DNA of 64,000 bases from NCBI GenBank assembly GCA_041661385.1, contig JBAZUP010000001.1, forward strand, positions 495,920-559,919, written 5' to 3'. The notes under the pieces were generated by a model, which saw only the letters and a list, made by a program, of their open reading frames with translations, was not told the origin of the DNA and did not search any database. The translations under genes were made by a program, and so were the position numbers. Below, in pieces: positions 19,876 through 62,712 of this stretch; within the stretch, counting starts at the first letter, position 1; the number at the start of each line of letters is the position of its first letter. Origin of the DNA: Patescibacteria group bacterium (GTDB lineage Bacteria > Patescibacteriota > Patescibacteriia > Magasanikbacterales > GWA2-37-8).

Positions 19876-19948
19876 GCGCCTGTAACTCAGCGGTAAGAGT
19901 GCCACCCTTATAAGGTGGAAGTCGATGGTTCGATTCCATCCAGGCGCA
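19876..19948 (+). tRNA. tRNA, anticodon read as UAU (Ile, AUA-decoding), 73 nt, no encoded CCA
   Basis: gcgcctg/caggcgc acceptor; D-arm actc-agcggtaa-gagt; anticodon arm ccacc-cttataa-ggtgg; T-arm gatgg-ttcgatt-ccatc; discriminator A. Anticodon identity is from a manual fold. Confidence 0.7.
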
Positions 19949-19982
19949 CCGCTCATTTGCATTTCTGAGGCCCGACGTAAAT

Positions 19983-33335: not shown

Positions 33336-34502
33336 CTATTGCTCACGGGCGTTTTTCCAGACTCCTGAGTCTGTGACACTTGCACTTTTGACTTGTTTTA
33401 CATAGTCGGAAGTACTCATGTTCACATCCCTTGAATTCTGGGCTTTGGCCTGGGAGAGCGGCCTCCCCGAATGCCAGACGGAAATCACATCGTCGGGGTT
33501 GTGCTTATAGGTTTGAAGCAGTTTCCGAATCTGGAACAACGCAACTTTTCGGTAGACGTCCGGCTCACGAATGAGCAATTCCGGCGTATACCGAATTCCG
33601 GTCGCTTCTTCAGACCACTGAGGGATATTTTCTCCCATGATTTGAGCCATTCCATAGGCTCTATCATAGGGGACTCCCTTCACCACCTTGATCCAAGGAT
33701 TGTAGGGTCCTGGCTTGTTAACCAAGATCATTGTGGGTTTGCCCCACACGTTTTTCTTTTGAACCCAGACCTTCATCTGAACCCATGGACCATAGGCCTT
33801 TATGCGACCCGAACTTTCACGAACCGTGAGTTGCTCCAAAAGAAGCAAAGCTTCAACATCGTCACGATTCAAGTGCGCAACAGCATCCTTTACGATCCCT
33901 TCCCGATCCTTTCCGCCGGATTTCTCCAGCTTCTGTTGAACCAGGTCAAGCTCGTCAACGAGAGCGGTCTTTTCACTGCGCTCCTTTTGCGCCTCGTTTT
34001 CGGCCTTCGTCTTGGCCTTACTCAGATCCAAGATCACTCTTTGCTGAGCGATGTTGTCAGCTTTCATCTTCTTGAAGATCGGGGCATCCTGTGCAATCAC
34101 GAGGCCTGCTTCCTTGATGGTTGCAGTAACCTCTTGACGAATCGATGCGGCGAGCTCCGGAGAGATCTTCGCGTCAATCGGCACAATCACGTTCTGTGAG
34201 GAGTTCTCGCGAACGACCTTGCCGATATCGGCCAGAAAATCATTCTTGAGTTCCTTGAAGTCCGTGATGGAAGGAATTTTCCTTCCGATTATGAAGGCGG
34301 CAACGAGACCAGCGACCAGAGCGATTCCGAAAAAGTGCGCATAGGCCTTGAAAAAGCTCTTGCGAGCCGGCGTAAAGTACCTCTTTGGGACTCGGTTGAT
34401 CGGCCGAGCAAGCTTTCTGGCTTCACTAACCACGATGGGTTGTTCCGGTTGGGAACTTGCGTTCACCACACGAAGAAAATTTCGAGCCGGGAGTTGGTCC
34501 AC
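33336..34502 (-). CDS. Membrane-anchored protein with a C-terminal muramidase/lytic-transglycosylase-like domain; GC-rich, GTG start
   Basis: GTG start at 34500-34502 preceded by AAGGAGG. One TM (FFGIALVAGLVAAFIIG), a coiled-coil, C-terminal RAYGMAQIMGEN motif. Codon usage favours AAG/CTG, unlike neighbouring genes. Confidence 0.45.
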   Translation of the reverse strand: MDQLPARNFLRVVNASSQPEQPIVVSEARKLARPINRVPKRYFTPARKSFFKAYAHFFGIALVAGLVAAFIIGRKIPSITDFKELKNDFLADIGKVVRENSSQNVIVPIDAKISPELAASIRQEVTATIKEAGLVIAQDAPIFKKMKADNIAQQRVILDLSKAKTKAENEAQKERSEKTALVDELDLVQQKLEKSGGKDREGIVKDAVAHLNRDDVEALLLLEQLTVRESSGRIKAYGPWVQMKVWVQKKNVWGKPTMILVNKPGPYNPWIKVVKGVPYDRAYGMAQIMGENIPQWSEEATGIRYTPELLIREPDVYRKVALFQIRKLLQTYKHNPDDVISVWHSGRPLSQAKAQNSRDVNMSTSDYVKQVKSASVTDSGVWKNAREQ

Positions 34503-38477: not shown

Positions 38478-38519
38478 CCATTTTTATCGCTTATCTAAGC
38501 AGTTTTTTAGTTGACTATC

Positions 38520-38548
38520 TTGACAAAACGCTTAAAAAGATGTATAAT
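38520..38548 (+). promoter_or_regulatory. Perfect consensus sigma70 promoter
   Basis: TTGACA, 17 nt (aaacgcttaaaaagatg), TATAAT. Confidence 0.7.
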
Positions 38549-38570
38549 TCTTTGTTGTGCGAATGATTTT

Positions 38571-38611
38571 CGCGACGCTTTAATTCGGAAATATTCTGGA
38601 TTAAAGCGTCG
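38571..38611 (+). promoter_or_regulatory. 13-bp perfect stem-loop in the 5' leader of the 38643 gene
   Basis: gcgacgctttaat/tcggaaatattctgg/attaaagcgtcgc. Confidence 0.6.
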
Positions 38612-38642
38612 CAGAAAATCTCAACAACTAACAGGAGAAGTC

Positions 38643-38966
38643 ATGACCAAAAAGAAGGACGAAGGCAAGATTGCGGCACTCAAGGAAAAGATTCAGGCCA
38701 ACAAGGAAAAGCTGGCGCACAAGCGCCGGCTACAAGAACGCAATCTGATCTACGTGTCACAGTTCGGAAACCTCGAGGTCATGGCGACCCTTGCAGGCCA
38801 CTTGGTTCTTCGGAACAAGGTCGGCGGGTCGGAAATTACGATTCGTCTTCGAGGCAGCGTCTTCATAGTGAAGACACCGCGCGGCACGCTTCAGGTCGAC
38901 AAGATGTGGTTCAGAATCACAAACGATCTAGAAGACAGCGACGAGTCCGAAAGTCCCACCACGTAA
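38643..38966 (+). CDS. Small GC-rich hypothetical protein, 107 aa
   Basis: AGGAGA Shine-Dalgarno 5 nt before ATG 38643. AAG- and GC3-rich codons unlike the host genes. The track's 38511 start is a TTG lying inside the -35 box. Terminator follows. Confidence 0.55.
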   Translation: MTKKKDEGKIAALKEKIQANKEKLAHKRRLQERNLIYVSQFGNLEVMATLAGHLVLRNKVGGSEITIRLRGSVFIVKTPRGTLQVDKMWFRITNDLEDSDESESPTT

Positions 38967-56182: not shown

Positions 56183-57412
56183 CTATTCTTTGGATTCAGC
56201 CTTCTTTTTATGAACTTTTTTTGGTTTTTCTTCTTTCGCTTCAGTTTCTTTTTTTTCTTCTGACTTTTCTTCTTTTTTCTCCGTCTTTTTTTCATCGCTT
56301 GCTACGGTACGTCCTTTTTTACCTTTTACACCAGCGAGCTTAAGACCGAGGCGGTGTTCAGCTGGTTCGAGTGAAACAACTTCAAAATCATATTCATGAC
56401 CAAGCTTGAATTTTTCATTCAAATTGGCAATTGGTTGATCGGAAAGTTCAGAAATGTGAGCAAGACCGTGGATGTCTTTATCAAGTCCAACCATCAGGCC
56501 GAAAGATTCAACTTTCAAAACCTTGCCTTTTACGGTATCTCCTACTTTATATTTATCCTTTACGCTCTTCCACGGATCATCCACAATGCGTTTCATTGAG
56601 AGATAAATCTTGGAATGATCGAGCTGGATAATTTGAGCTTTTACCGAATCACCAACTTTCAAAACATCCTTTGGGTGATCAATACGCTGCCAAGCGATTT
56701 CCGAAATGTGAATTAGACCCTCAAGGCCCTGACCAAATTTCATGAAGGCGCCAAATGAGGTAAGAGCGCTAATTTCACCATCAACTATATCGCCTACCTT
56801 GTATGATTCAAGAACTGCTTTTTGAGAATCTTCCCAAACTGCGCGCTCGGAAGCGATAATTTTTTCTTCGTTTTCATCAACATCAATAAGTTTTACTTCG
56901 AGATCGCGACCAACCATTTCTTTTAGCTTGTCGAGAATGCGATTTTTATCGCCACCCGCTACGCGCGGATAATTATCCGGGCTAAGTTGAGAAACAGGCA
57001 TAAAAGCATTCAATGCTTCAAGCTGTAGAAGCAAACCGCCTTTGTTAGCTGATAAAATTTTGGCTTTTAAGGTCAAACCGTCTTTCATCCATTTCTTCAT
57101 GTTGTCCCAAGCCTTGCGATAACCAGCAATGCGGAATGACAATTCCATTTCACCGTTTTCATTTTCTAATTCCAAAACGGTTGCTTCAACTTCATCACCA
57201 ACTTTTAAACCTGAATATTCGCTGCTTTCAACAAAAAGTTCCTGACCGCGAACAACACCAATAGTCATGCCGGCGACATCGATATGAATTTCACCGCGTT
57301 CGACCGAAATAACTTTGCCTTTGATGACATCACTTAATTTCGGCACGTCCATGGCGTACGCCTGAATCAATGATTTAAAATCATCATCTTTAACCTTTTT
57401 TTCTTCTGACAT
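56183..57412 (-). CDS. rpsA: 30S ribosomal protein S1 (four S1 domains, Lys/Glu-rich tail)
   Basis: Repeated S1 OB-fold blocks (GKVISVERGEIHIDV, GKVLKVESFGLMVGL...). Start placed at ATG 57410-57412; the track's 57418 is TTG. Leader has hairpins and no Shine-Dalgarno. Confidence 0.8.
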   Translation of the reverse strand: MSEEKKVKDDDFKSLIQAYAMDVPKLSDVIKGKVISVERGEIHIDVAGMTIGVVRGQELFVESSEYSGLKVGDEVEATVLELENENGEMELSFRIAGYRKAWDNMKKWMKDGLTLKAKILSANKGGLLLQLEALNAFMPVSQLSPDNYPRVAGGDKNRILDKLKEMVGRDLEVKLIDVDENEEKIIASERAVWEDSQKAVLESYKVGDIVDGEISALTSFGAFMKFGQGLEGLIHISEIAWQRIDHPKDVLKVGDSVKAQIIQLDHSKIYLSMKRIVDDPWKSVKDKYKVGDTVKGKVLKVESFGLMVGLDKDIHGLAHISELSDQPIANLNEKFKLGHEYDFEVVSLEPAEHRLGLKLAGVKGKKGRTVASDEKKTEKKEEKSEEKKETEAKEEKPKKVHKKKAESKE

Positions 57413-57537: not shown

Positions 57538-57615
57538 GACGGCTATAAAATTCATGACTTTTTTAATTTCTTCTAAATATAATATATAATGACTTATACT
57601 TAAATATGTGATAAA

Positions 57616-58575
57616 ATGACAATAAATATGGATAATTATTTACTGCGAATTGAAAAAATGAAAAAAAGCCTCACAATCCTTCAAAAGGAGAATTTTAAAA
57701 TTGCTTCTAACGGAACGCATCATAAAGTATATATTTCAAATAAATATGTTATCAGATTTCGAGACGATAACCAAAAAATTTTAGCTAGAGAAGTTAAATT
57801 ATTAAAACAACTCAATCATCCTCTGATACCAAGGGTTTTGTGGTCTGGCTATATTAATAAATCATTTGTAATGCTTGAAAACAGACTCCCTGGTAAAACG
57901 TTAGATTTACTCTGGAAGATACTTCCGAAAAAAAATCAATTAAATATTATTAATCAAATTATTCAGTTTTTGCAATATATAAAAACTCAAAATTATAATT
58001 ATGTTTATTCGGTCAATACTGGTAAAAAATATAATAATTTTAAAGGCTATCTCACCAACAATATCAAGCAAAAAGTTGCAAGCATAAAAAAAATTAAACA
58101 AACGAACGATATTTTGAAGGAATTAATTTTAGTTATTAAAAAACCCGAGGTTCAAAAATTCTTTTCTAACCAAGAAAAAATAACACTTGTTCACGGCGAT
58201 CTTATTATTCATAATCTACTCTCAGATGGCAAAAATTTAACCGGCGTTATAGATTGGGAGTTGGCTTTATACGGCGTACCTGACTACGACCTTTTTCGCC
58301 TTTTTTATTATGAAGAGTGTGCTAAAGCTTACCAAGAACAAGACACCGATGAATCCTTTGAAGCAGAGTTCCTAAATATGCTTAACGTAAAAATTTTAAA
58401 ATCAAATCTTATTAAAAGCAAAAAAAAGTTTCAAAAAAAATATCAACTTGTGAATGCCATATTTTTTCTTAACGCCCTTTATTGGGCGGTAAATTCCGAT
58501 AACCGAAATGAAAATATAAACGAGCTAAAAATGCTATGGAAAAAAAGAAGTGGGGTTAAGTACATATGTACTTAA
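57616..58575 (+). CDS. APH/choline-kinase-family phosphotransferase (protein-kinase-like fold)
   Basis: VHGDLIIHNLL (Brenner HGDxxxxN) and IDWELA (DxE). Very AT-rich gene. Confidence 0.65.
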   Translation: MTINMDNYLLRIEKMKKSLTILQKENFKIASNGTHHKVYISNKYVIRFRDDNQKILAREVKLLKQLNHPLIPRVLWSGYINKSFVMLENRLPGKTLDLLWKILPKKNQLNIINQIIQFLQYIKTQNYNYVYSVNTGKKYNNFKGYLTNNIKQKVASIKKIKQTNDILKELILVIKKPEVQKFFSNQEKITLVHGDLIIHNLLSDGKNLTGVIDWELALYGVPDYDLFRLFYYEECAKAYQEQDTDESFEAEFLNMLNVKILKSNLIKSKKKFQKKYQLVNAIFFLNALYWAVNSDNRNENINELKMLWKKRSGVKYICT

Positions 58576-58590
58576 CCCCACGAACTGCAA

Positions 58591-58686
58591 CTACTTGCAG
58601 CGGGTCCGCTTTCCAGACATGGCAACGCCCGATTTCATCGGGGTAACCTTGCGGATTGCGACCTTTTTGATAGCAATCTTCTTCAT
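58591..58686 (-). CDS. 31-aa basic peptide co-transcribed 15 nt downstream of the radical SAM gene
   Basis: AGGGGG Shine-Dalgarno 8 nt before ATG. MKKIAIKKVAIRKVTPMKSGVAMSGKRTRCK, single Cys at residue 30. Below the ORF-track size cutoff; found by manual translation. Confidence 0.4.
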   Translation of the reverse strand: MKKIAIKKVAIRKVTPMKSGVAMSGKRTRCK

Positions 58687-58701
58687 TTAAATCACCCCCT
58701 T

Positions 58702-60150
58702 TCACACACCGCACGTGTGACGCTTCACAACCGTTGAAGCACCGTTTGACCGAAGATATTCCAATGCAAGAGCATCCGTGACCGAGCGGTAAAAATCACA
58801 CATATCGGCAAAAAGACTTTGCCGCTGATCCCCTACCAATTGTGCATCAACTTCTCTTGTCACATGACATTGACCGCCGCACGGACCTTCAATAACACAA
58901 CCTTTACAGTAGGCATCTGCTCCAGGAAAACGCTCCTGGACAATTTTGAACAATCCGCCGGACCTGTTGAACATCTCATCAAAACGATCCACGTGCCCAA
59001 TAGATGTACATGTATGGCCACAAACCTTTATACTTCCATCAACATTAAATTCAACCGATTTTCCCTGGACGGCGGCGCAAAAGGCATGACTACCTGTGAG
59101 GAGGCTCACTGATGTTAGGTTGCGAAATGCACTATCCCAAGTACCGAAGAAATCAATCCCCAAATCATTTGCGTATCTCTTCAGCACCATCAGCTTTTCA
59201 ACTCTCGTTGGTATCGGCACATCAATCAGGCTAATAAGGTCGTAGTCAAAAGCAAGAGATACCATGCCTCTTGCGGCGGCAAGATCGATGATATCTACAT
59301 CCACAAAATCGAAATTTCTCTTGGTCACAGTAATACTGAAACCATCCAGCGGATAACCAATTTCAGCCAAGAGATCAAACTTCTTGAGCAAAAGCGCGAA
59401 TGTGCCTTTTCCACCCTTGGTAACGCGAATCACATCATTAGCCTGGGCAGTTCCATCTAGCGAGGTCGCAATTACCACCCTATACTCCTTAAGGGTTTCA
59501 GCAATTTCGCGCGTCATCAAAGAAAGATTTGTATTGATTGCGAATTCAAACTTTAAACCACTCATCTGACTACAATAGACCAGCACATTTTTTATGACCG
59601 GCCAGTTTATGAGGGGTTCAGCATTTCCGAAATGAATTTTACCATCCGAACACTCATTCTTTCGCATTAACAATATGTATTGGTCAATGCATTGCTTTGC
59701 CGTTTCCCAACTCATATTGCGAGATAATTCATTGTTCGAATTGGATTGAAGTACAATACCTCCACTATTGAACGACTGCCGATGAAGACAATGGGAACAC
59801 CCAAAATTACAAAGGTCGCTAATTGCAAGGCCCATACGGTCAACTGTCTGCCCCTGCTTGATTTGCGACAAGTGTTGAGCCTTCTGAGATCTAAGAAACA
59901 TCTTCTCATCGAAACCTGGTTCAACAAGAAATAAAATCTCCTCGAACTCCTTAATAATTTCTTCCGGATTTTCGTCACACGCTTTCGCAATTTCTTCCTG
60001 AGTCACTGGATACTTAAACAAATCCAAAAATTGTCTGGCTTCATCATTGACAATCCGAGGATTGCCGTACAAAGTATGATAAGCCATAGACGTTTCGAAT
60101 TCGGGATTTGCAATAAAGCGAACATTCGGCGACAACATGTATTTTTTCAT
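58702..60150 (-). CDS. Radical SAM / SPASM-domain enzyme with an N-terminal extension of about 105 aa (peptide- or protein-modifying maturase type)
   Basis: CNFGCSHC (Cx3Cx2C) roughly 105 aa from the start. C-terminal Cys-rich SPASM-like region (CGHTC...CKGCVIEGPCGGQC...C). Start set to ATG 60148-60150 (MKKYML), which has an AAGGAGA Shine-Dalgarno. Confidence 0.75.
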   Translation of the reverse strand: MKKYMLSPNVRFIANPEFETSMAYHTLYGNPRIVNDEARQFLDLFKYPVTQEEIAKACDENPEEIIKEFEEILFLVEPGFDEKMFLRSQKAQHLSQIKQGQTVDRMGLAISDLCNFGCSHCLHRQSFNSGGIVLQSNSNNELSRNMSWETAKQCIDQYILLMRKNECSDGKIHFGNAEPLINWPVIKNVLVYCSQMSGLKFEFAINTNLSLMTREIAETLKEYRVVIATSLDGTAQANDVIRVTKGGKGTFALLLKKFDLLAEIGYPLDGFSITVTKRNFDFVDVDIIDLAAARGMVSLAFDYDLISLIDVPIPTRVEKLMVLKRYANDLGIDFFGTWDSAFRNLTSVSLLTGSHAFCAAVQGKSVEFNVDGSIKVCGHTCTSIGHVDRFDEMFNRSGGLFKIVQERFPGADAYCKGCVIEGPCGGQCHVTREVDAQLVGDQRQSLFADMCDFYRSVTDALALEYLRSNGASTVVKRHTCGV

Positions 60151-60360
60151 TGTCAATTTCTCCTTATTTGGGTTATATGTCAATCTTTTTCGACATGTGA
60201 ATCGTCATCATCAAAAAAATAACTTCTACTTTGTAAAAGAGCGAGCAGTATTCTCTGCTTCATTTTTAACTTAAAAAGTTATACATTTAAGCAAAAAATG
60301 AAATAAATAATAACAACCAAAAATACCATATTTAATGATTAATGTCAATAGTATAAAGAA

Positions 60361-60394
60361 GACCCGCGGGGCGCCGAAAGGCACCACGCGGGTC
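60361..60394 (-). terminator. Hairpin terminator after the Ig-like lipoprotein gene
   Basis: gacccgcg...cgcgggtc 8-bp stem. Confidence 0.5.
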
Positions 60395-60413
60395 TGTTGA
60401 AAAGAACTACTGA

Positions 60414-61385
60414 CTACTGGTTGATGGGGACCAGCCTGCCATCTGCGCTCATTGACATGAGCTGACTAGTCGCGGGCTGAGCGCCGCAAGAAGTAATCAC
60501 AGTTGCCGTGAGCAGTTGGACCTCGCCGGGCCTAAGCGACACGGTATTCGGAGACACCGAAACGCTCACAACCTTGTCCGTCACAGTGACGGCAGCGACA
60601 GATGACTTGGTGACATCGGCCTTGCTGACCGCCACTATGTGGTAAATGCCGGCGATTGCCGGAGCGGTGTAGAGACCAGTGGCGGAGATTGTTCCGCCCG
60701 CTGCTCCCTCCTGAATGGACCAGGTGACACCGGTGTTACTGGTGCCGCTAATAATTGTGCCAAACTGATACGTGAGGCACGAATTGATTGCGGCTGTTGC
60801 CGGCGAAACTGCGATGCTGACCACCGGATTAACGACAATCGGCGAATTGACGGCAACCGCGGCGGTTGCTGACTTTCTGTTTTTTACGACCGTGGTCGCA
60901 ATCACATGAAAGTTACCAGCATTGGCCGGCGCAGAGTACAAACCAGTTGCGGAAATGGTCCCGCCACCGGTTTCCGTGACAGACCAACTGACAGAAGTAT
61001 CTGTTGGACCAGTCACAGTAGCCACGAACTGAATGTTGCCACCGACGAGAACCTGCGCCGAAGAAGGGCTGACAGAAATGACTGTCCTTCGCACCTTTAC
61101 GGCCGCACTGCCGACCAGCGAATTGCTGGTTGTTCGCAGCACATGGTATGTGCCATCACTTGCCGGCGCTGTGTAAAGACCGGTCGAAGAAATGGTTCCA
61201 CCATTGGTCTCCATGACTGACCAGGTACCTGCCTCGGCTGAGACAAATTGCTGGCTGTCGCCAACTTCGAGTTCAGCCGAAGCTGGACTCACGGTAACTG
61301 GTGTGACTGTCACCACCTGAGAGGTGGTAATCTCGGCCGGAACGCAACCGACCAGAAGAAACAGCATGACCATGAAACTCTTCAT
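60414..61385 (-). CDS. Lipoprotein with three Ig-like (Big_2-type) repeats; GC-rich
   Basis: Start at ATG 61383-61385: MKSFMVMLFLLVGC lipobox. Three repeats of about 90 aa (...GGTISATGLY.AP...G.YHV.A.S...). GC clearly higher than flanking genes. Confidence 0.65.
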   Translation of the reverse strand: MKSFMVMLFLLVGCVPAEITTSQVVTVTPVTVSPASAELEVGDSQQFVSAEAGTWSVMETNGGTISSTGLYTAPASDGTYHVLRTTSNSLVGSAAVKVRRTVISVSPSSAQVLVGGNIQFVATVTGPTDTSVSWSVTETGGGTISATGLYSAPANAGNFHVIATTVVKNRKSATAAVAVNSPIVVNPVVSIAVSPATAAINSCLTYQFGTIISGTSNTGVTWSIQEGAAGGTISATGLYTAPAIAGIYHIVAVSKADVTKSSVAAVTVTDKVVSVSVSPNTVSLRPGEVQLLTATVITSCGAQPATSQLMSMSADGRLVPINQ

Positions 61386-61390
61386 GGAGA

Positions 61391-61819
61391 TTACGCCGCC
61401 CTTCCTGGACGACGGAACATCCGCCAGTTCGGATGGGTTAGCGCGTAATCGCGGCAAGCCATCTTGGAGCAATACAAATTGCCATCAGCCTCGAGCCAAT
61501 CCTTCGGATTGTTGGTCGTGTCGTCACATCGAAGACACTGATAGGCCAAATGACCCAAAGGCTTCTCGCCCGCAACTGCAAGCTGATTCGAGATCTTCTC
61601 GACATTGCTGACCTTCTTGTCAGTCCGATTGGCGAGACCGCGCCGGTGTCGACACGGGCTCGAATTGCAATAGTGCTTATCGCCAACGATATCCCAATTT
61701 CTCGGGAAGTACTTTGAACCGACCGGAATGGCCGACTTGTTCTTGCAATTCTCTTCATCGCAACTGAATTGCTGAAACTTTGCTCCACTGCCAGTGGTTT
61801 GGATGGTAGCGTCGAACAT
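61391..61819 (-). CDS. 8-Cys protein (four CxnC pairs; two predicted zinc-ribbon-like sites); GC-rich
   Basis: GGAGGA Shine-Dalgarno 6 nt before ATG. CDEENC, CNSSPC, CLRC, CSKMAC. No signal peptide. Confidence 0.55.
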   Translation of the reverse strand: MFDATIQTTGSGAKFQQFSCDEENCKNKSAIPVGSKYFPRNWDIVGDKHYCNSSPCRHRRGLANRTDKKVSNVEKISNQLAVAGEKPLGHLAYQCLRCDDTTNNPKDWLEADGNLYCSKMACRDYALTHPNWRMFRRPGRAA

Positions 61820-62032
61820 TGTCTGTCCTCCGCACGCTCAGTTTTTATTTCGCGTGCCCTTAAGAGGCACGGTAAACTGAGCTTATTCTCAATTCCCTGC
61901 CTCGTTTATAGCTTTTTATCAATAAAATAAGCCAAAAATAAGACAGGGAAAATTGTTAAAGAACTCCTAAATATATCAGCTTTTGACCAATTTGTCAAGG
62001 CATTTGAATCATTTTTGATCTGGGTTTTCCAC

Positions 62033-62061
62033 TTGCTACAAACCAAAAAAAATGCTAAAAT
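62033..62061 (+). promoter_or_regulatory. Sigma70-type promoter for the 62077 gene
   Basis: TTGCTA, 17 nt, TGcTAAAAT (extended -10). Confidence 0.5.
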
Positions 62062-62076
62062 ATATCAAGTTTTATC

Positions 62077-62712
62077 ATGATTTTTGTCAAAAATATGCAC
62101 ATTTCTTGGCTTGGCCAAACCTGTATCCGGCTTCAGACTCGCTTCAACGACGAAGATGTTATTACCATCATTGACCCCTATCGCCCTGAAACCGGTGAAT
62201 TCCCCCGCTCCCTTGCACCTTCAATTGCCCTACTTTCTTCCGGCGAAAAAGATAGTATTACTCTTTCGCAAAATCCATTTGTTTTAAGCACGCTTGGTGA
62301 ATGCGAAAAAAAGGAAGTCATGATTACCGCTTTTCCGTCTTTAAACGGTAACCTAATTTTCAAAATTAACGCCGAACAAATTTCGGTAGTTCACCTCGGT
62401 CGCCTAAACAAAAAACCGGACATTTCCGAATTAGAAAAAATTGGCACGATCGACATTCTGATAATTCCAGTTGGCGACAACAAACAATACTTAAATGCCG
62501 AAGATGCCGCCAGTATTGTCACCGCACTTGAACCAAGAATTGTTATTCCCATGGCCTACCAATGTGATACTGATAAAGATGTAAAACCCCTTGGAGATTT
62601 TATTAAAGAATCCGGAATGAAGCCAGCTTCGACTGAAAAAAAACTTATTATCAAGAAAAAAGATCTACCTCAAGATGAAACCCGTTTGATTGTACTTGAG
62701 AAAAACGTTTAA
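62077..62712 (+). CDS. MBL-fold protein (Lactamase_B_3-like) with a degenerate HxHxDH motif
   Basis: MHISWLGQTCIRLQ...IIDPY and ...DILIIPVGDNKQYLNAEDAASIVTALEPRIVIPMAY match the fold. The canonical His cluster is replaced by Q/T/C. Confidence 0.45.
   Translation: MIFVKNMHISWLGQTCIRLQTRFNDEDVITIIDPYRPETGEFPRSLAPSIALLSSGEKDSITLSQNPFVLSTLGECEKKEVMITAFPSLNGNLIFKINAEQISVVHLGRLNKKPDISELEKIGTIDILIIPVGDNKQYLNAEDAASIVTALEPRIVIPMAYQCDTDKDVKPLGDFIKESGMKPASTEKKLIIKKKDLPQDETRLIVLEKNV

What the first reader, a model, noticed from the sequence alone, without database searches (positions are those of the whole stretch)
60414..61871. Strongly GC-shifted pair: lipoprotein with three Ig-like repeats plus an 8-Cys protein, adjacent to the rSAM gene
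This segment is much more GC-rich than the rest of the window by eye, with abundant GCC/CTG/GTG codons. It encodes a lipobox lipoprotein with three roughly 90-aa Ig-like repeats and, upstream, a 142-aa protein with four CxnC pairs behind a GGAGGA Shine-Dalgarno. A 6-bp hairpin (61853-61871) sits just upstream of its start. These read as foreign genes, possibly acquired from a higher-GC partner or host organism. With the neighbouring rSAM and peptide they may form one acquired surface-modification or adhesion module.
Basis: partly seen in the sequence, partly recalled or inferred. Interest (0 to 1): 0.6.

Follow-up and report, generated by a model that had tools for sequence, protein, structure and literature searches.

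The report
Old foreign surface-protein operon, half-ameliorated
The GC-rich patch is real: it is a two-gene operon, a novel zinc-finger-like protein plus an Ig-repeat surface lipoprotein of a type otherwise seen in GC-rich Myxococcota, that a small clade of Magasanikbacteria (CPR bacteria) inherited from its ancestor, and it is not a fresh island tied to the neighbouring radical-SAM gene.

Summary
Observation confirmed. Segment 60414-61871 is the GC maximum of the window (0.547 vs 0.405±0.032). GC3 is 0.59-0.62 against about 0.40 expected with native codon usage. The lipobox, three Ig-like domains, four Cys pairs, GGAGGA SD and 6-bp hairpin are all present.

Interpretation partly supported. 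The lipoprotein is a full-length member of a family whose named members are all Myxococcota, so a high-GC foreign origin is likely. But this is not a recent, genome-specific island. Three distinct sister Magasanikbacteria assemblies (S1 87-94% identical) carry the same module at the same spot, between the S1 and MBL-hydrolase genes. They share its promoter, its 145-nt structured leader and its terminator, and the GC3 excess is the same or larger. None of them has the rSAM or the kinase. Those genes (about 57.55-60.34 kb) are a later insertion, so there is no single rSAM-adhesin module.

New points:
- The 8-Cys protein is two homologous 4-Cys modules with no Pfam, PDB or fold match. Only four other sequences in billions are related to it.
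- In two sisters it is fused in frame to the lipoprotein.
- The leader RNA has no Rfam family. In one sister a second copy sits in front of another very GC-rich gene.
- The S1/MBL gap is a recurrent cargo hot spot.

Function (surface adhesin plus a cytoplasmic zinc protein) is inferred.

The parts
61970..61998 (-). Sigma-70-type promoter of the module: TTGACA (61998-61993), 17-nt spacer, TG-extended TATATT (61975-61970)
   Evidence: Scan gives 11 of 12 matches with a TG extension. The -35 and -10 boxes are conserved in L029, L030 and L027.
61820..61964 (-). Structured 5' leader of about 145 nt. P1 is a long hairpin at 61950-61893. P2 is a long-range stem (61882-61874 with 61844-61836) that encloses P3. 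The SD GGAGGA is at 61831-61826.
   Evidence: About 80% nucleotide identity to the sisters, although the coding sequence is no longer alignable as DNA. MFE -50.5 kcal/mol, z = -5.95, 0 of 200 shuffles fold as well. Sister leaders give z = -5.3 and -5.1. Two base pairs show changes on both sides. The covariance model scores 118 bits here and 100-121 bits in the sisters. No Rfam family matches.
61853..61871 (-).
   Evidence: Sequence. Conserved in all leader copies.
61391..61819 (-). Cys142: a 142-aa cytoplasmic protein made of two homologous 4-Cys modules (predicted zinc-binding). A new, extremely rare family.
60414..61385 (-). Lipoprotein of 323 aa: signal peptide with lipobox (Cys14), three Big_2-type Ig-like domains, and a C-terminal beta unit carrying the family motif TATV(I/T)T(S/T)CG. 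The start codon lies 5 nt after the Cys142 stop.
   Evidence: (C203 and C300 are invariant across 54 family members).
60360..60395 (-). Intrinsic terminator of the module: a GC-rich stem of 15 pairs with one unpaired base on each side, then UUCUUUAU
   Evidence: Inverted repeat I16. Fold -36.7 kcal/mol, z = -7.3. 93% identical to L027 and conserved in L028 and L029.
57552..60340 (.). Later insertion, not part of the module. It holds a promoter (60348-60320), an rSAM/SPASM maturase (60150..58702), a 31-aa basic peptide with a strong SD (58686..58591), a perfect 32-bp palindromic terminator (58581-58550), and a convergent APH-like kinase (57616..58575, 29% GC). The boundaries are approximate.
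   Evidence: Absent from L027, L028 and L029, where the module terminator is followed directly by the S1 promoter. Features.
56183..57412 (-). Ribosomal protein S1 gene, the conserved flank on one side of the hot spot
   Evidence: Pfam S1 annotation. 87-94% identity to the sisters. The divergent S1/MBL pair is conserved across 103 Patescibacteria loci.
62077..62712 (+). MBL-fold hydrolase gene (Lactamase_B_3), the conserved flank on the other side of the hot spot

Best explanation
This is a small operon that a narrow clade of Candidatus Magasanikbacteria inherited from its common ancestor. That ancestor acquired it by horizontal transfer from a very GC-rich bacterium, and the lipoprotein belongs to a family otherwise seen in Myxococcota. 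The DNA is now roughly half-ameliorated toward the AT-rich host composition. The operon sits in the gap between the divergently transcribed S1 and MBL-hydrolase genes, which takes up foreign cargo repeatedly in Patescibacteria. How it is read (shown from sequence and comparison): a near-consensus sigma-70 promoter, then a conserved structured leader of about 145 nt, then Cys142, then 5 nt, then the lipoprotein, then a strong intrinsic terminator. How it is thought to work (inferred): the lipoprotein is exported, lipidated on Cys14 and anchored on the cell surface. There it displays a rod of three Ig-like domains and a Cys-stapled C-terminal cap, acting as an adhesin or coat protein, plausibly for contact with a partner cell. 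Cys142 stays in the cytoplasm as a double zinc-binding protein that is translationally coupled to the lipoprotein. In two sister species the stop codon between the two genes is lost, so the zinc domain becomes an N-terminal cytoplasmic extension of the signal peptide or signal anchor. This argues that the two parts act together. The neighbouring rSAM, peptide and kinase genes entered this genome later and are unrelated to the module.
For: Composition. Independent assemblies. The same locus in the sisters, with conserved promoter, leader and terminator but a diverged coding sequence (lipoprotein 49-52% and Cys domain 31-34% amino-acid identity, against S1 87-94% and FtsH 87-90%). GC3 of the module in the sisters is 0.69-0.76, against 0.40-0.45 for their neighbours; the Cys part alone is 0.73-0.81. 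Divergence at four-fold sites between the window and the sisters is K4 = 0.8-1.6. By my own rough two-state calculation, this leaves 20-50% of an initial GC3 excess of about 0.55. The observed excess is 0.23-0.31. Absence from 103 other syntenic loci by tblastn and by profile HMM. Family architecture and Myxococcota names. The four Magasanikbacteria sequences group together in an NJ tree, with 56% bootstrap; P0010 and P0122 pair at 97%. Fused ORFs in L027 and L029; the split form with the same ...RAA-stop ending in L028. L027 and L029 are each other's closest relatives, so a single fusion event is enough. Three Ig-like domains with tandem-Ig adhesin, fibre and S-layer structural analogues. Hot spot: the gap is usually 130-600 bp but holds unrelated cargo in L031, L006, L047, L081 and L085, and an unrelated lipoprotein at 60% GC in L004.
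Against: No donor is identified. The best hits outside the clade are only 42-47% identical, almost as close as the sister orthologues. Bootstrap support for a single origin is weak (56%), and the window and L028 sequences never pair in the tree. No homologue of the Cys domain is found in Myxococcota or next to three family members examined outside the clade, so the two genes may have different sources. There are no mobility genes, no tRNA and no convincing flanking repeats. Adhesin function, lipidation, zinc binding and any role of the leader are untested. The Cys142 model has only moderate confidence. The amelioration estimate is a back-of-envelope calculation.
Confidence: 0.6

Rival explanations
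1. Recurrent allele replacement. Each lineage separately acquired its copy of the lipoprotein (and the Cys gene) from GC-rich donors, by recombination through the conserved leader and terminator flanks. On this view the high GC3 reflects recent imports, not slow amelioration.
For: The flanks are conserved (80-93% nucleotide identity) while the interior is not alignable as DNA. The window and L028 proteins are about as distant from each other as from Myxococcota proteins, and monophyly has only 56% bootstrap. L029 holds a second leader copy in front of a gene with GC3 0.95, and L004 holds another GC-rich lipoprotein, which points to ongoing input from GC-rich sources at this spot.
Against: All lineages share the Cys domain, which is absent from the putative donor pool. 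The window and L028 share the same ...RAA-stop junction. The GC3 excess is similar in all lineages and fits the measured K4.
Confidence: 0.15
2. The window copy is a frameshifted, decaying version of a single bitopic membrane protein (cytoplasmic zinc domain, transmembrane helix, external Ig repeats). The fused form seen in L027 and L029 would then be the functional one.
For: Two sister assemblies encode one uninterrupted ORF. The lipoprotein frame in the window stays open for 29 codons upstream of its ATG and overlaps the end of Cys142.
Against: L028 has the same split with a different spacer (2 nt against 5 nt) and an intact SD and ATG. Both ORFs are intact and identical in the three independent assemblies. 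The outgroup family members are stand-alone lipoproteins with N-terminal signal peptides. The fused forms cluster together (97% bootstrap; S1 95% identical), so the fusion is the derived state by parsimony. All four lineages keep an SD-like sequence and a start codon in front of the signal peptide.
Confidence: 0.12
3. A native, vertically inherited gene pair whose GC richness is held in place by selection (Ala/Gly/Thr/Val-rich protein, mRNA or translation constraints), with no horizontal transfer.
For: About half of the GC excess of the lipoprotein gene is explained by amino-acid composition. The shift persists in all sister lineages even though synonymous sites are close to saturation.
Against: GC3 is 6-7 sd above the value expected with native codon usage. 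The highly expressed native genes S1 and FtsH have low GC3, 0.30-0.34. The module is absent from 103 other syntenic Patescibacteria loci. The family is large and compositionally native in Myxococcota.
Confidence: 0.08
4. One reading: a recent island specific to this genome that forms one acquired surface-modification module with the rSAM and its peptide, for example with the 8-Cys protein as a substrate of the rSAM.
For: The genes are adjacent and on the same strand. The rSAM is a SPASM-type peptide maturase whose nearest models act on Cys-rich peptides, although all scores are far below the cutoffs.
Against: The sisters have Cys-Big2 without any rSAM or kinase. A strong terminator and a separate promoter lie between the lipoprotein and the rSAM. 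The rSAM has near-native GC (0.43; GC3 z = 2.8) and its own downstream 31-aa peptide.
Confidence: 0.04
5. Assembly or binning chimera: a fragment of a GC-rich organism was stitched into a CPR contig.
For: An abrupt composition change over about 100 nt at both ends.
Against: Three independent assemblies from different samples have identical junctions. The same arrangement is found in three distinct sister assemblies. Native-type AT-rich promoter, leader and terminator are joined to the coding sequence.
Confidence: 0.01

Closest known systems
Myxococcota lipoproteins with tandem Ig-like (Big_2/I-set-like) repeats and a C-terminal ...QFTATVTTTCG motif, e.g. the Anaeromyxobacter dehalogenans protein P0079, which UniRef labels 'calcium-binding outer membrane-like'
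   Same: Same overall architecture and length: lipobox, two to four Ig-like repeats, and a C-terminal half-repeat with an invariant Cys. The Cys pair C203/C300 is invariant. Identity is 42-47% over 80-90% of the protein, with E down to 1e-75.
   Different: The host is an AT-rich CPR bacterium. GC3 is 0.60 here against 0.93-0.98 in those genes. The family's second Cys pair, in repeat 2, is missing here. The gene is preceded by, and in the sisters fused to, a zinc-domain gene that was not found beside the three family members examined. The family itself has no tested function.
Big_2-domain surface adhesins such as Leptospira LigA/LigB and intimin/invasin
   Same: Pfam Big_2 scores above the cutoff. 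Foldseek matches LigA variable-region Ig domains at E = 1e-9. All are beads-on-a-string rods on the cell surface.
   Different: Much shorter (three domains). Anchored by a lipid, not by a beta-barrel or an LPXTG motif. No ligand is known and sequence identity is below 25%.
Bitopic bacterial membrane proteins with an N-terminal cytoplasmic zinc-ribbon (Pfam zinc_ribbon_2 or DZR types) or zinc-binding anti-sigma domain (zf-HC2), followed by a transmembrane helix and an extracellular domain (recalled from general knowledge)
   Same: The fused sister forms P0010 and P0122 have this topology: Cys4 modules, a hydrophobic segment, then an external domain.
   Different: No Pfam model of these families matches, even at E = 10. 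In the window the two parts are separate genes. The hydrophobic segment ends in a lipobox-like Cys, which suggests cleavage and not a permanent anchor.
Treble-clef zinc fingers of the TRASH / FCS (MYM) / ribosomal L24e type (a lead from memory)
   Same: The motif C-x2-4-C ... W ... [HL]-Y-C-x4-C occurs twice. In the predicted secondary structure the first Cys pair lies in a beta-hairpin knuckle and the last Cys lies at the start of a helix.
Genomic islets at conserved intergenic hot spots, with Lawrence-Ochman-type amelioration of acquired genes
   Same: Atypical GC and GC3, patchy phyletic distribution, and a shared insertion site that carries different cargo in different lineages.
   Different: No integrase, tRNA or direct repeats. 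The islet is old enough to be shared by several species and has acquired, or kept, a native-looking promoter and structured leader.

Membership tests
Pfam Big_2 (PF02368) bacterial Ig-like domain | HMM score above the gathering cutoff | tested here: met
   42.1 bits against a cutoff of 22.8, in three stretches.
Pfam Big_2 (PF02368) bacterial Ig-like domain | Ig-like beta-sandwich fold | tested here: met
   AF2 pLDDT 90.8 with three beta-sandwich domains. Foldseek matches LigA Big_2 domains, cadherins and NUP210 Ig domains at E of 1e-9 to 1e-12.
Bacterial lipoprotein (Lgt/LspA substrate) | Signal peptide with a positive n-region, a hydrophobic core and a lipobox [LVI][ASTVI][GAS]C | tested here: met
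   MKSFMVMLFLLVGC has L-V-G-C with Cys14. Most family members carry a lipobox.
Bacterial lipoprotein (Lgt/LspA substrate) | Lgt and LspA encoded in the genome; lipidation shown | not tested
   Only 64 kb of the genome is available and its ORFs were not scanned for Lgt or LspA. Lipidation needs an experiment.
Myxococcota-type lipoprotein / Ig-repeat / TTTCG family | Full-length collinearity, including the C-terminal TATVTTTCG motif and the conserved Cys pair | tested here: met
   The window has ...LLTATVITSCG.... C203 and C300 are invariant in the 54-sequence alignment.
Horizontally acquired genomic island | Composition and codon usage deviate from the host | tested here: met
   The segment is the GC maximum of the window. 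GC3 z = 6-7 after controlling for amino-acid composition.
Horizontally acquired genomic island | Absent from related genomes at the same locus | tested here: inconclusive
   Absent from 103 loci with S1 identity of 84% or less. Present in all three distinct closest sister assemblies. The result fits an old acquisition shared by the clade, not a recent island.
Horizontally acquired genomic island | Mobility signatures: integrase, tRNA target, flanking direct repeats | tested here: not met
   No tRNA within 30 kb. The only flanking repeat is a 23-nt AT-rich pair at 78% identity, probably chance. No integrase ORF lies in the gap.
Zinc-ribbon / treble-clef families (Pfam DZR, zinc_ribbon_2, TRASH/YHS, zf-FCS, zf-HC2) | Profile match to a family model | tested here: not met
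Zinc-ribbon / treble-clef families (Pfam DZR, zinc_ribbon_2, TRASH/YHS, zf-FCS, zf-HC2) | Four conserved metal ligands per module; metal binding | tested here: inconclusive
   All eight Cys are conserved in the three two-module homologues (the window protein, P0010 and P0122), and the two modules are homologous. Zinc binding cannot be tested here.
rSAM/SPASM RiPP cluster that includes Cys142 or the lipoprotein | Conserved co-occurrence of the maturase with the putative substrate or partner | tested here: not met
   The sisters have the Cys-Big2 module without an rSAM. A terminator and a separate promoter lie between the two.
Known cis-regulatory RNA or riboswitch (Rfam 15) | Covariance-model hit at the gathering score | tested here: not met
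   Best hits in the leader score 22 bits against cutoffs of 44-95 and are chance hairpin matches.
Structured cis-regulatory leader (generic) | Conserved structure with covariation | tested here: inconclusive
   z = -5.1 to -6.0 in three leader copies. Two pairs carry compensatory changes, but only four distinct sequences are available.

The most novel reading that the evidence does not exclude
The conserved promoter and structured leader of about 145 nt is a new cis-regulatory RNA that serves as an expression platform for genes imported from a GC-rich partner organism into the S1/MBL hot spot. In one sister it drives both the Cys-Big2 module and a separate, freshly acquired gene with GC3 0.95. 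Cys142, a new double zinc-finger protein encoded first in the operon, could be the leader's trans-acting partner. It could also be a cytoplasmic domain released from the lipoprotein precursor by signal-peptide cleavage. If the donors really are Myxococcota, the locus would also point to the unknown host of this Magasanikbacteria clade.
Probability: 0.15. Interest if true: 0.75.

Novelty: new variant of a known kind. Interest (0 to 1): 0.42.

Why it matters
CPR/Patescibacteria are thought to live attached to other cells, yet for most lineages, Magasanikbacteria included, neither the hosts nor the attachment molecules are known (general knowledge). Here a surface Ig-repeat lipoprotein of a Myxococcota type has been retained for a long time at a hot spot that repeatedly receives GC-rich cargo. 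That gives a concrete candidate for an attachment protein and a testable hint about which organisms this clade exchanges DNA with. The locus also yields two items with no database family: a double 4-Cys domain known from only five sequences, and a structured leader RNA. It is also a clean natural example of a split/fused gene pair across a signal peptide. On its own, the GC anomaly is an ordinary sign of past gene transfer.

Tried and rejected
1. Chimeric assembly. Rejected because three independent assemblies are identical.

2. Strain-variable junction at 58551, where both Logan contigs end. This is explained by a perfect 32-bp palindrome at 58550-58581, which breaks k-mer assemblies.

3. Flanking direct or inverted repeats, tRNA or integrase as island borders. 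Nothing convincing was found.

4. High GC3 as codon bias of highly expressed genes. Rejected because S1 and FtsH have GC3 of 0.30-0.34. The other GC-high ORFs (33336-34502, 38511-38966) are hypothetical proteins, not translation genes.

5. Phage, plasmid or defence-system origin. There is no blastn or tblastn hit in the phage or plasmid collections and no PADLOC or PHROG family for Cys142. Five 16-mer matches in viral contigs did not match the leader model.

6. TRASH / FCS / L24e membership of the Cys modules. The motif resemblance came from memory and no test supports it.

7. Programmed frameshift joining the two ORFs. I saw no slippery heptamer in the overlap (sequence), and L028 uses a different spacer.

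8. More leader copies. An exact 20-mer scan of the metagenome contigs found nothing. The covariance model found no extra copy in the window or in the 117 loci searched.

9. More Cys-domain relatives. A profile search through the word index added nothing.

10. The 27-aa ORF upstream of the rSAM (60263..60180) as a precursor peptide. It has no SD and no support. The 31-aa ORF downstream of the rSAM, which has a strong SD, is the better candidate.

11. A first bootstrap run with Biopython timed out. It was redone with numpy.
Full report
**What the window is.** The window has 40.6% GC. Its genes and their nearest syntenic relatives place it in Candidatus Magasanikbacteria (Patescibacteria/CPR). 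NCBI names the source of the identical protein only 'Patescibacteria group bacterium', locus tag WC725_02770, on a 778-kb contig.

**The observation.** The GC shift is real and sharp.
- 200-nt windows rise from about 0.30-0.33 at 60100-60400 to 0.51-0.60 between 60400 and 61800. They fall back to 0.28-0.39 at 61800-62100.
- The reported segment 60414-61871 has GC 0.547, essentially the maximum for any window of that length (mean 0.405, sd 0.032). Only windows that overlap it come close.
- GC3 is 0.596 for the lipoprotein gene and 0.615 for the Cys gene, against 0.371±0.071 for ORFs of at least 150 aa.
- Re-encoding the two proteins with the window's own synonymous codon frequencies predicts GC3 of 0.405 and 0.390, so the observed values lie 6.9 and 5.9 sd above expectation. 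About half of the total GC excess of the lipoprotein gene comes from its Ala/Gly/Thr/Val-rich composition and half from codon choice.
- The model adds a fourth, smaller C-terminal beta unit (residues 271-323).

**Not an artefact.** The same sequence, including both composition junctions, is present at 99.96-100% identity in three independent assemblies from different samples. Both Logan contigs stop at window position 58551. That is the left edge of a perfect 32-bp palindrome (58550-58581), which is expected to break a k-mer assembly. It is therefore not evidence of strain variation.

**The surroundings and the key comparison.** S1 (minus strand) and an MBL-fold hydrolase (plus strand) form a divergent gene pair that is conserved across Patescibacteria.
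- In 23 GTDB-representative loci and 80 metagenome loci the gap between the two genes is usually 130-600 bp. In the window it is 4.66 kb.
- None of those 103 loci, with S1 identity of 84% or less, contains a relative of the lipoprotein, Cys142, the rSAM or the kinase. This holds by tblastn, and for the lipoprotein and Cys142 also by profile HMMs run on six-frame translations.
- An exhaustive phmmer search with Cys142 over 1.84 billion cluster representatives found three real relatives. P0010 was also a top hit of the lipoprotein search.
- P0010, P0122 and the lipoprotein hit P0007 are all encoded at exactly this locus in closer sister genomes. These are L027 (P0010), L029/L030 (P0122) and L028 (P0007). 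Their amino-acid identity to the window is 87-94% for S1, 87-90% for FtsH and 78% for MBL.
- In these sisters the module lies directly next to S1. There is no rSAM and no kinase.
- The module's own identity is low: 49-52% for the lipoprotein and 31-34% for the Cys domain.
- Its non-coding ends are well conserved. The promoter and leader are about 80% identical over about 150 nt, and the terminator is 93% identical.
- GC3 of the module in the sisters is 0.69-0.76, against 0.40-0.45 for their neighbouring genes. The Cys part alone is 0.73-0.81.

The compositional anomaly is therefore a shared, inherited feature of a small clade. It is not a recent event in this genome.

**The later insertion.** Alignment of the sister intergenic regions with the window shows two things. 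The terminator of the module (60395-60360) and the S1 promoter and leader (about 57550-57413) are both retained. Between them lie about 2.8 kb that the sisters lack. This stretch contains:
- a second near-consensus promoter (60348-60320);
- an rSAM/SPASM peptide maturase (60150..58702; every NCBIfam model scores far below its cutoff);
- a 31-aa basic peptide ORF with a strong SD (58686..58591);
- the palindromic terminator (58581-58550);
- a convergent APH-like kinase at 29% GC (57616..58575).

This removes the proposed functional link between the GC-rich pair and the rSAM.

**Origin of the lipoprotein.** The search returned 792 hits.
- Many share the whole architecture: a lipobox, two to four Ig-like repeats, and a C-terminal ...QFTATVTTTCG... 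motif. Two Cys (C203 and C300 in the window protein) are invariant in a 54-sequence alignment.
- All seven hits that carry an organism name are Myxococcota: Anaeromyxobacteraceae, Myxococcaceae and Hyalangium.
- Three examined loci have 62-78% GC and gene GC3 of 0.81-0.98.
- In an NJ tree of the C-terminal 150 residues the four Magasanikbacteria proteins form one clade. Bootstrap support is only 56%; the pair P0010 and P0122 has 97%.
- Four-fold-site divergence of the flanking genes between the window and the sisters is K4 = 0.8-1.6.
- My own rough two-state amelioration estimate (inference) says 0.4-0.8 substitutions per site per lineage would leave about 20-50% of an initial GC3 excess of about 0.55. 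That is 0.13-0.27, against an observed 0.23-0.31.

One transfer from a very GC-rich donor near the base of this clade therefore accounts for the data. The donor remains unnamed because identities are only 42-47%.

**The 8-Cys protein.**
- A profile search added no members. The family consists of the window protein, the N-terminal parts of P0010 and P0122, the truncated end of an ORF in L028, and a single-module 91-aa protein on a 918-bp contig.
- All eight Cys are conserved. The two halves are homologous to each other (hhalign probability 93.6%, E = 2e-7).
- In the predicted secondary structure the first Cys pair of each module lies in a beta-hairpin and the last Cys at the start of a helix. 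That is a treble-clef-like arrangement. The resemblance to TRASH/FCS/L24e fingers remains an untested lead from memory.

**Split and fused forms.**
- In L027 and L029/L030 the Cys domain, the hydrophobic signal segment and the Ig repeats form one ORF.
- In the window and in L028 the Cys ORF ends ...RAA-stop, and the lipoprotein ATG follows after 5 or 2 nt in the -1 frame.
- All four lineages keep an SD-like sequence and a start codon before the signal peptide.
- The outgroup proteins are stand-alone lipoproteins, and the two fused lineages are each other's closest relatives (S1 95% identical). The split form is therefore probably ancestral and the fusion a single later event.
- Because the fusion is tolerated, the two products either act together, or the precursor is cleaved at the lipobox so that the same two products result. 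Both readings are inference.

**The leader.**
- Downstream of the promoter TTGACA-17-TGaTATATT (61998-61970; 11 of 12 matches) lies a leader of about 145 nt.
- The fold is far more stable than shuffled controls: z = -5.95 in the window, and -5.3 and -5.1 for two sister leader copies.
- L029 carries a second, diverged copy upstream of a different small gene (93 aa, GC3 0.95). It has compensatory changes in P1 (C-G to G-C, and U-A to G-C).
- There is no Rfam match. A covariance model finds no further copy in the window or in the 117 loci searched.
- With only four distinct sequences the structure is plausible but unproven, and its function is unknown.

**The hot spot.** Other lineages hold unrelated cargo in the same gap. 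L031 has a PRTase-like, a GNAT-like and a DUF559-like ORF, judged by eye from the translations. L006 has several secreted proteins. L047, L081 and L085 also carry cargo. L004 has an unrelated, Cys-rich lipoprotein at 60% GC in the same orientation. Together with the GC3-0.95 gene in L029, this suggests repeated uptake of GC-rich genes, often for surface proteins, at this site.

**Function (inferred).** The structural neighbours of the lipoprotein model are tandem-Ig rods from adhesins, phage fibres, cadherins and S-layers, including Leptospira LigA. The most likely role is a lipid-anchored surface adhesin or coat component. Cys142 would be a cytoplasmic zinc protein co-expressed at a fixed ratio by translational coupling.

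**Verdict.** The foreign, higher-GC origin is supported. The 'recent island' and 'one module with the rSAM' readings are refuted. The case is an ordinary kind of event, ancient HGT of a surface protein into a hot spot. It has three features worth follow-up: a new double 4-Cys domain, a split/fused pair across a signal peptide, and an unclassified structured leader that is reused for another GC-rich gene.

Noticed in passing
window 58591-58686 (minus strand) and 58702-60150: A 31-aa basic peptide ORF (MKKIAIKKVAIRKVTPMKSGVAMSGKRTRCK) lies immediately downstream of the rSAM/SPASM maturase and has a strong SD (AAGGGGGTGA). It is a candidate RiPP precursor/maturase pair, absent from the sister genomes. 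Every NCBIfam maturase model scores far below its cutoff.
   Followed up: partly
window 58550-58581: A perfect 32-bp palindrome (GTGGGGTTAAGTACAT/ATGTACTTAACCCCAC) followed by a T-run. It is a likely bidirectional terminator between the convergent kinase and rSAM operons, and it overlaps the last codons of the kinase gene. Two independent Logan contigs end exactly here.
   Followed up: yes
window 57616-58575 (plus strand): An APH-family phosphotransferase gene at only 29% GC, the lowest in the window. It lies inside the same strain-specific insertion, so three compositionally distinct units (29%, 43% and 55% GC) sit side by side in one intergenic gap.
   Followed up: partly
window 60180-60263 (minus strand): A 27-aa ORF (MKQRILLALLQSRSYFFDDDDSHVEKD) between the second promoter and the rSAM start. 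It has no SD and no homologue, and is probably not a gene.
   Followed up: no
L029 7235-7669: A sister genome has a second, diverged copy of the promoter and structured leader. It drives a 93-aa basic coiled-coil-like ORF with GC3 0.95 (GC 63.5%), which looks like a much more recent import from a very GC-rich source. No family, phage or plasmid match was found.
   Followed up: partly
L004 9113-9763 (minus strand of the locus): The closest GTDB representative has an unrelated Cys-rich lipoprotein (MRMVVALWLAVVMVKFVGC...) at 60% GC and GC3 0.68, at the same S1/MBL position and in the same orientation.
   Followed up: partly
L031 410-2911; L006 2355-10000; L047, L081, L085, L077: In other Patescibacteria the S1/MBL gap, usually 130-600 bp, holds 2.5-7.6 kb of unrelated cargo. 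Examples are PRTase-like, GNAT-like and DUF559-like ORFs (judged by eye from the translations) and several signal-peptide proteins. It is a recurrent insertion hot spot.
   Followed up: partly
window 33336-34502 (minus strand) and 38511-38966 (plus strand): Two further hypothetical ORFs with raised GC3 (0.58 and 0.56) and no Pfam family. They may be additional foreign islets.
   Followed up: no
window 19876-19950: ARAGORN calls a tRNA-Ile with anticodon UAU. This is uncommon in bacteria, which usually read AUA with a lysidine-modified CAU tRNA (general knowledge).
   Followed up: no
window 60303-60325 and 61918-61940: A pair of AT-rich 23-nt direct repeats at 78% identity brackets the GC-rich segment just outside the terminator and the leader hairpin. 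It is probably a chance match in AT-rich spacer.
   Followed up: no
L029/L030 (P0122) against the window, L027 and L028: The number of Ig-like repeats varies between sister alleles: one full repeat plus the C-terminal unit in P0122, against three in the others.
   Followed up: partly
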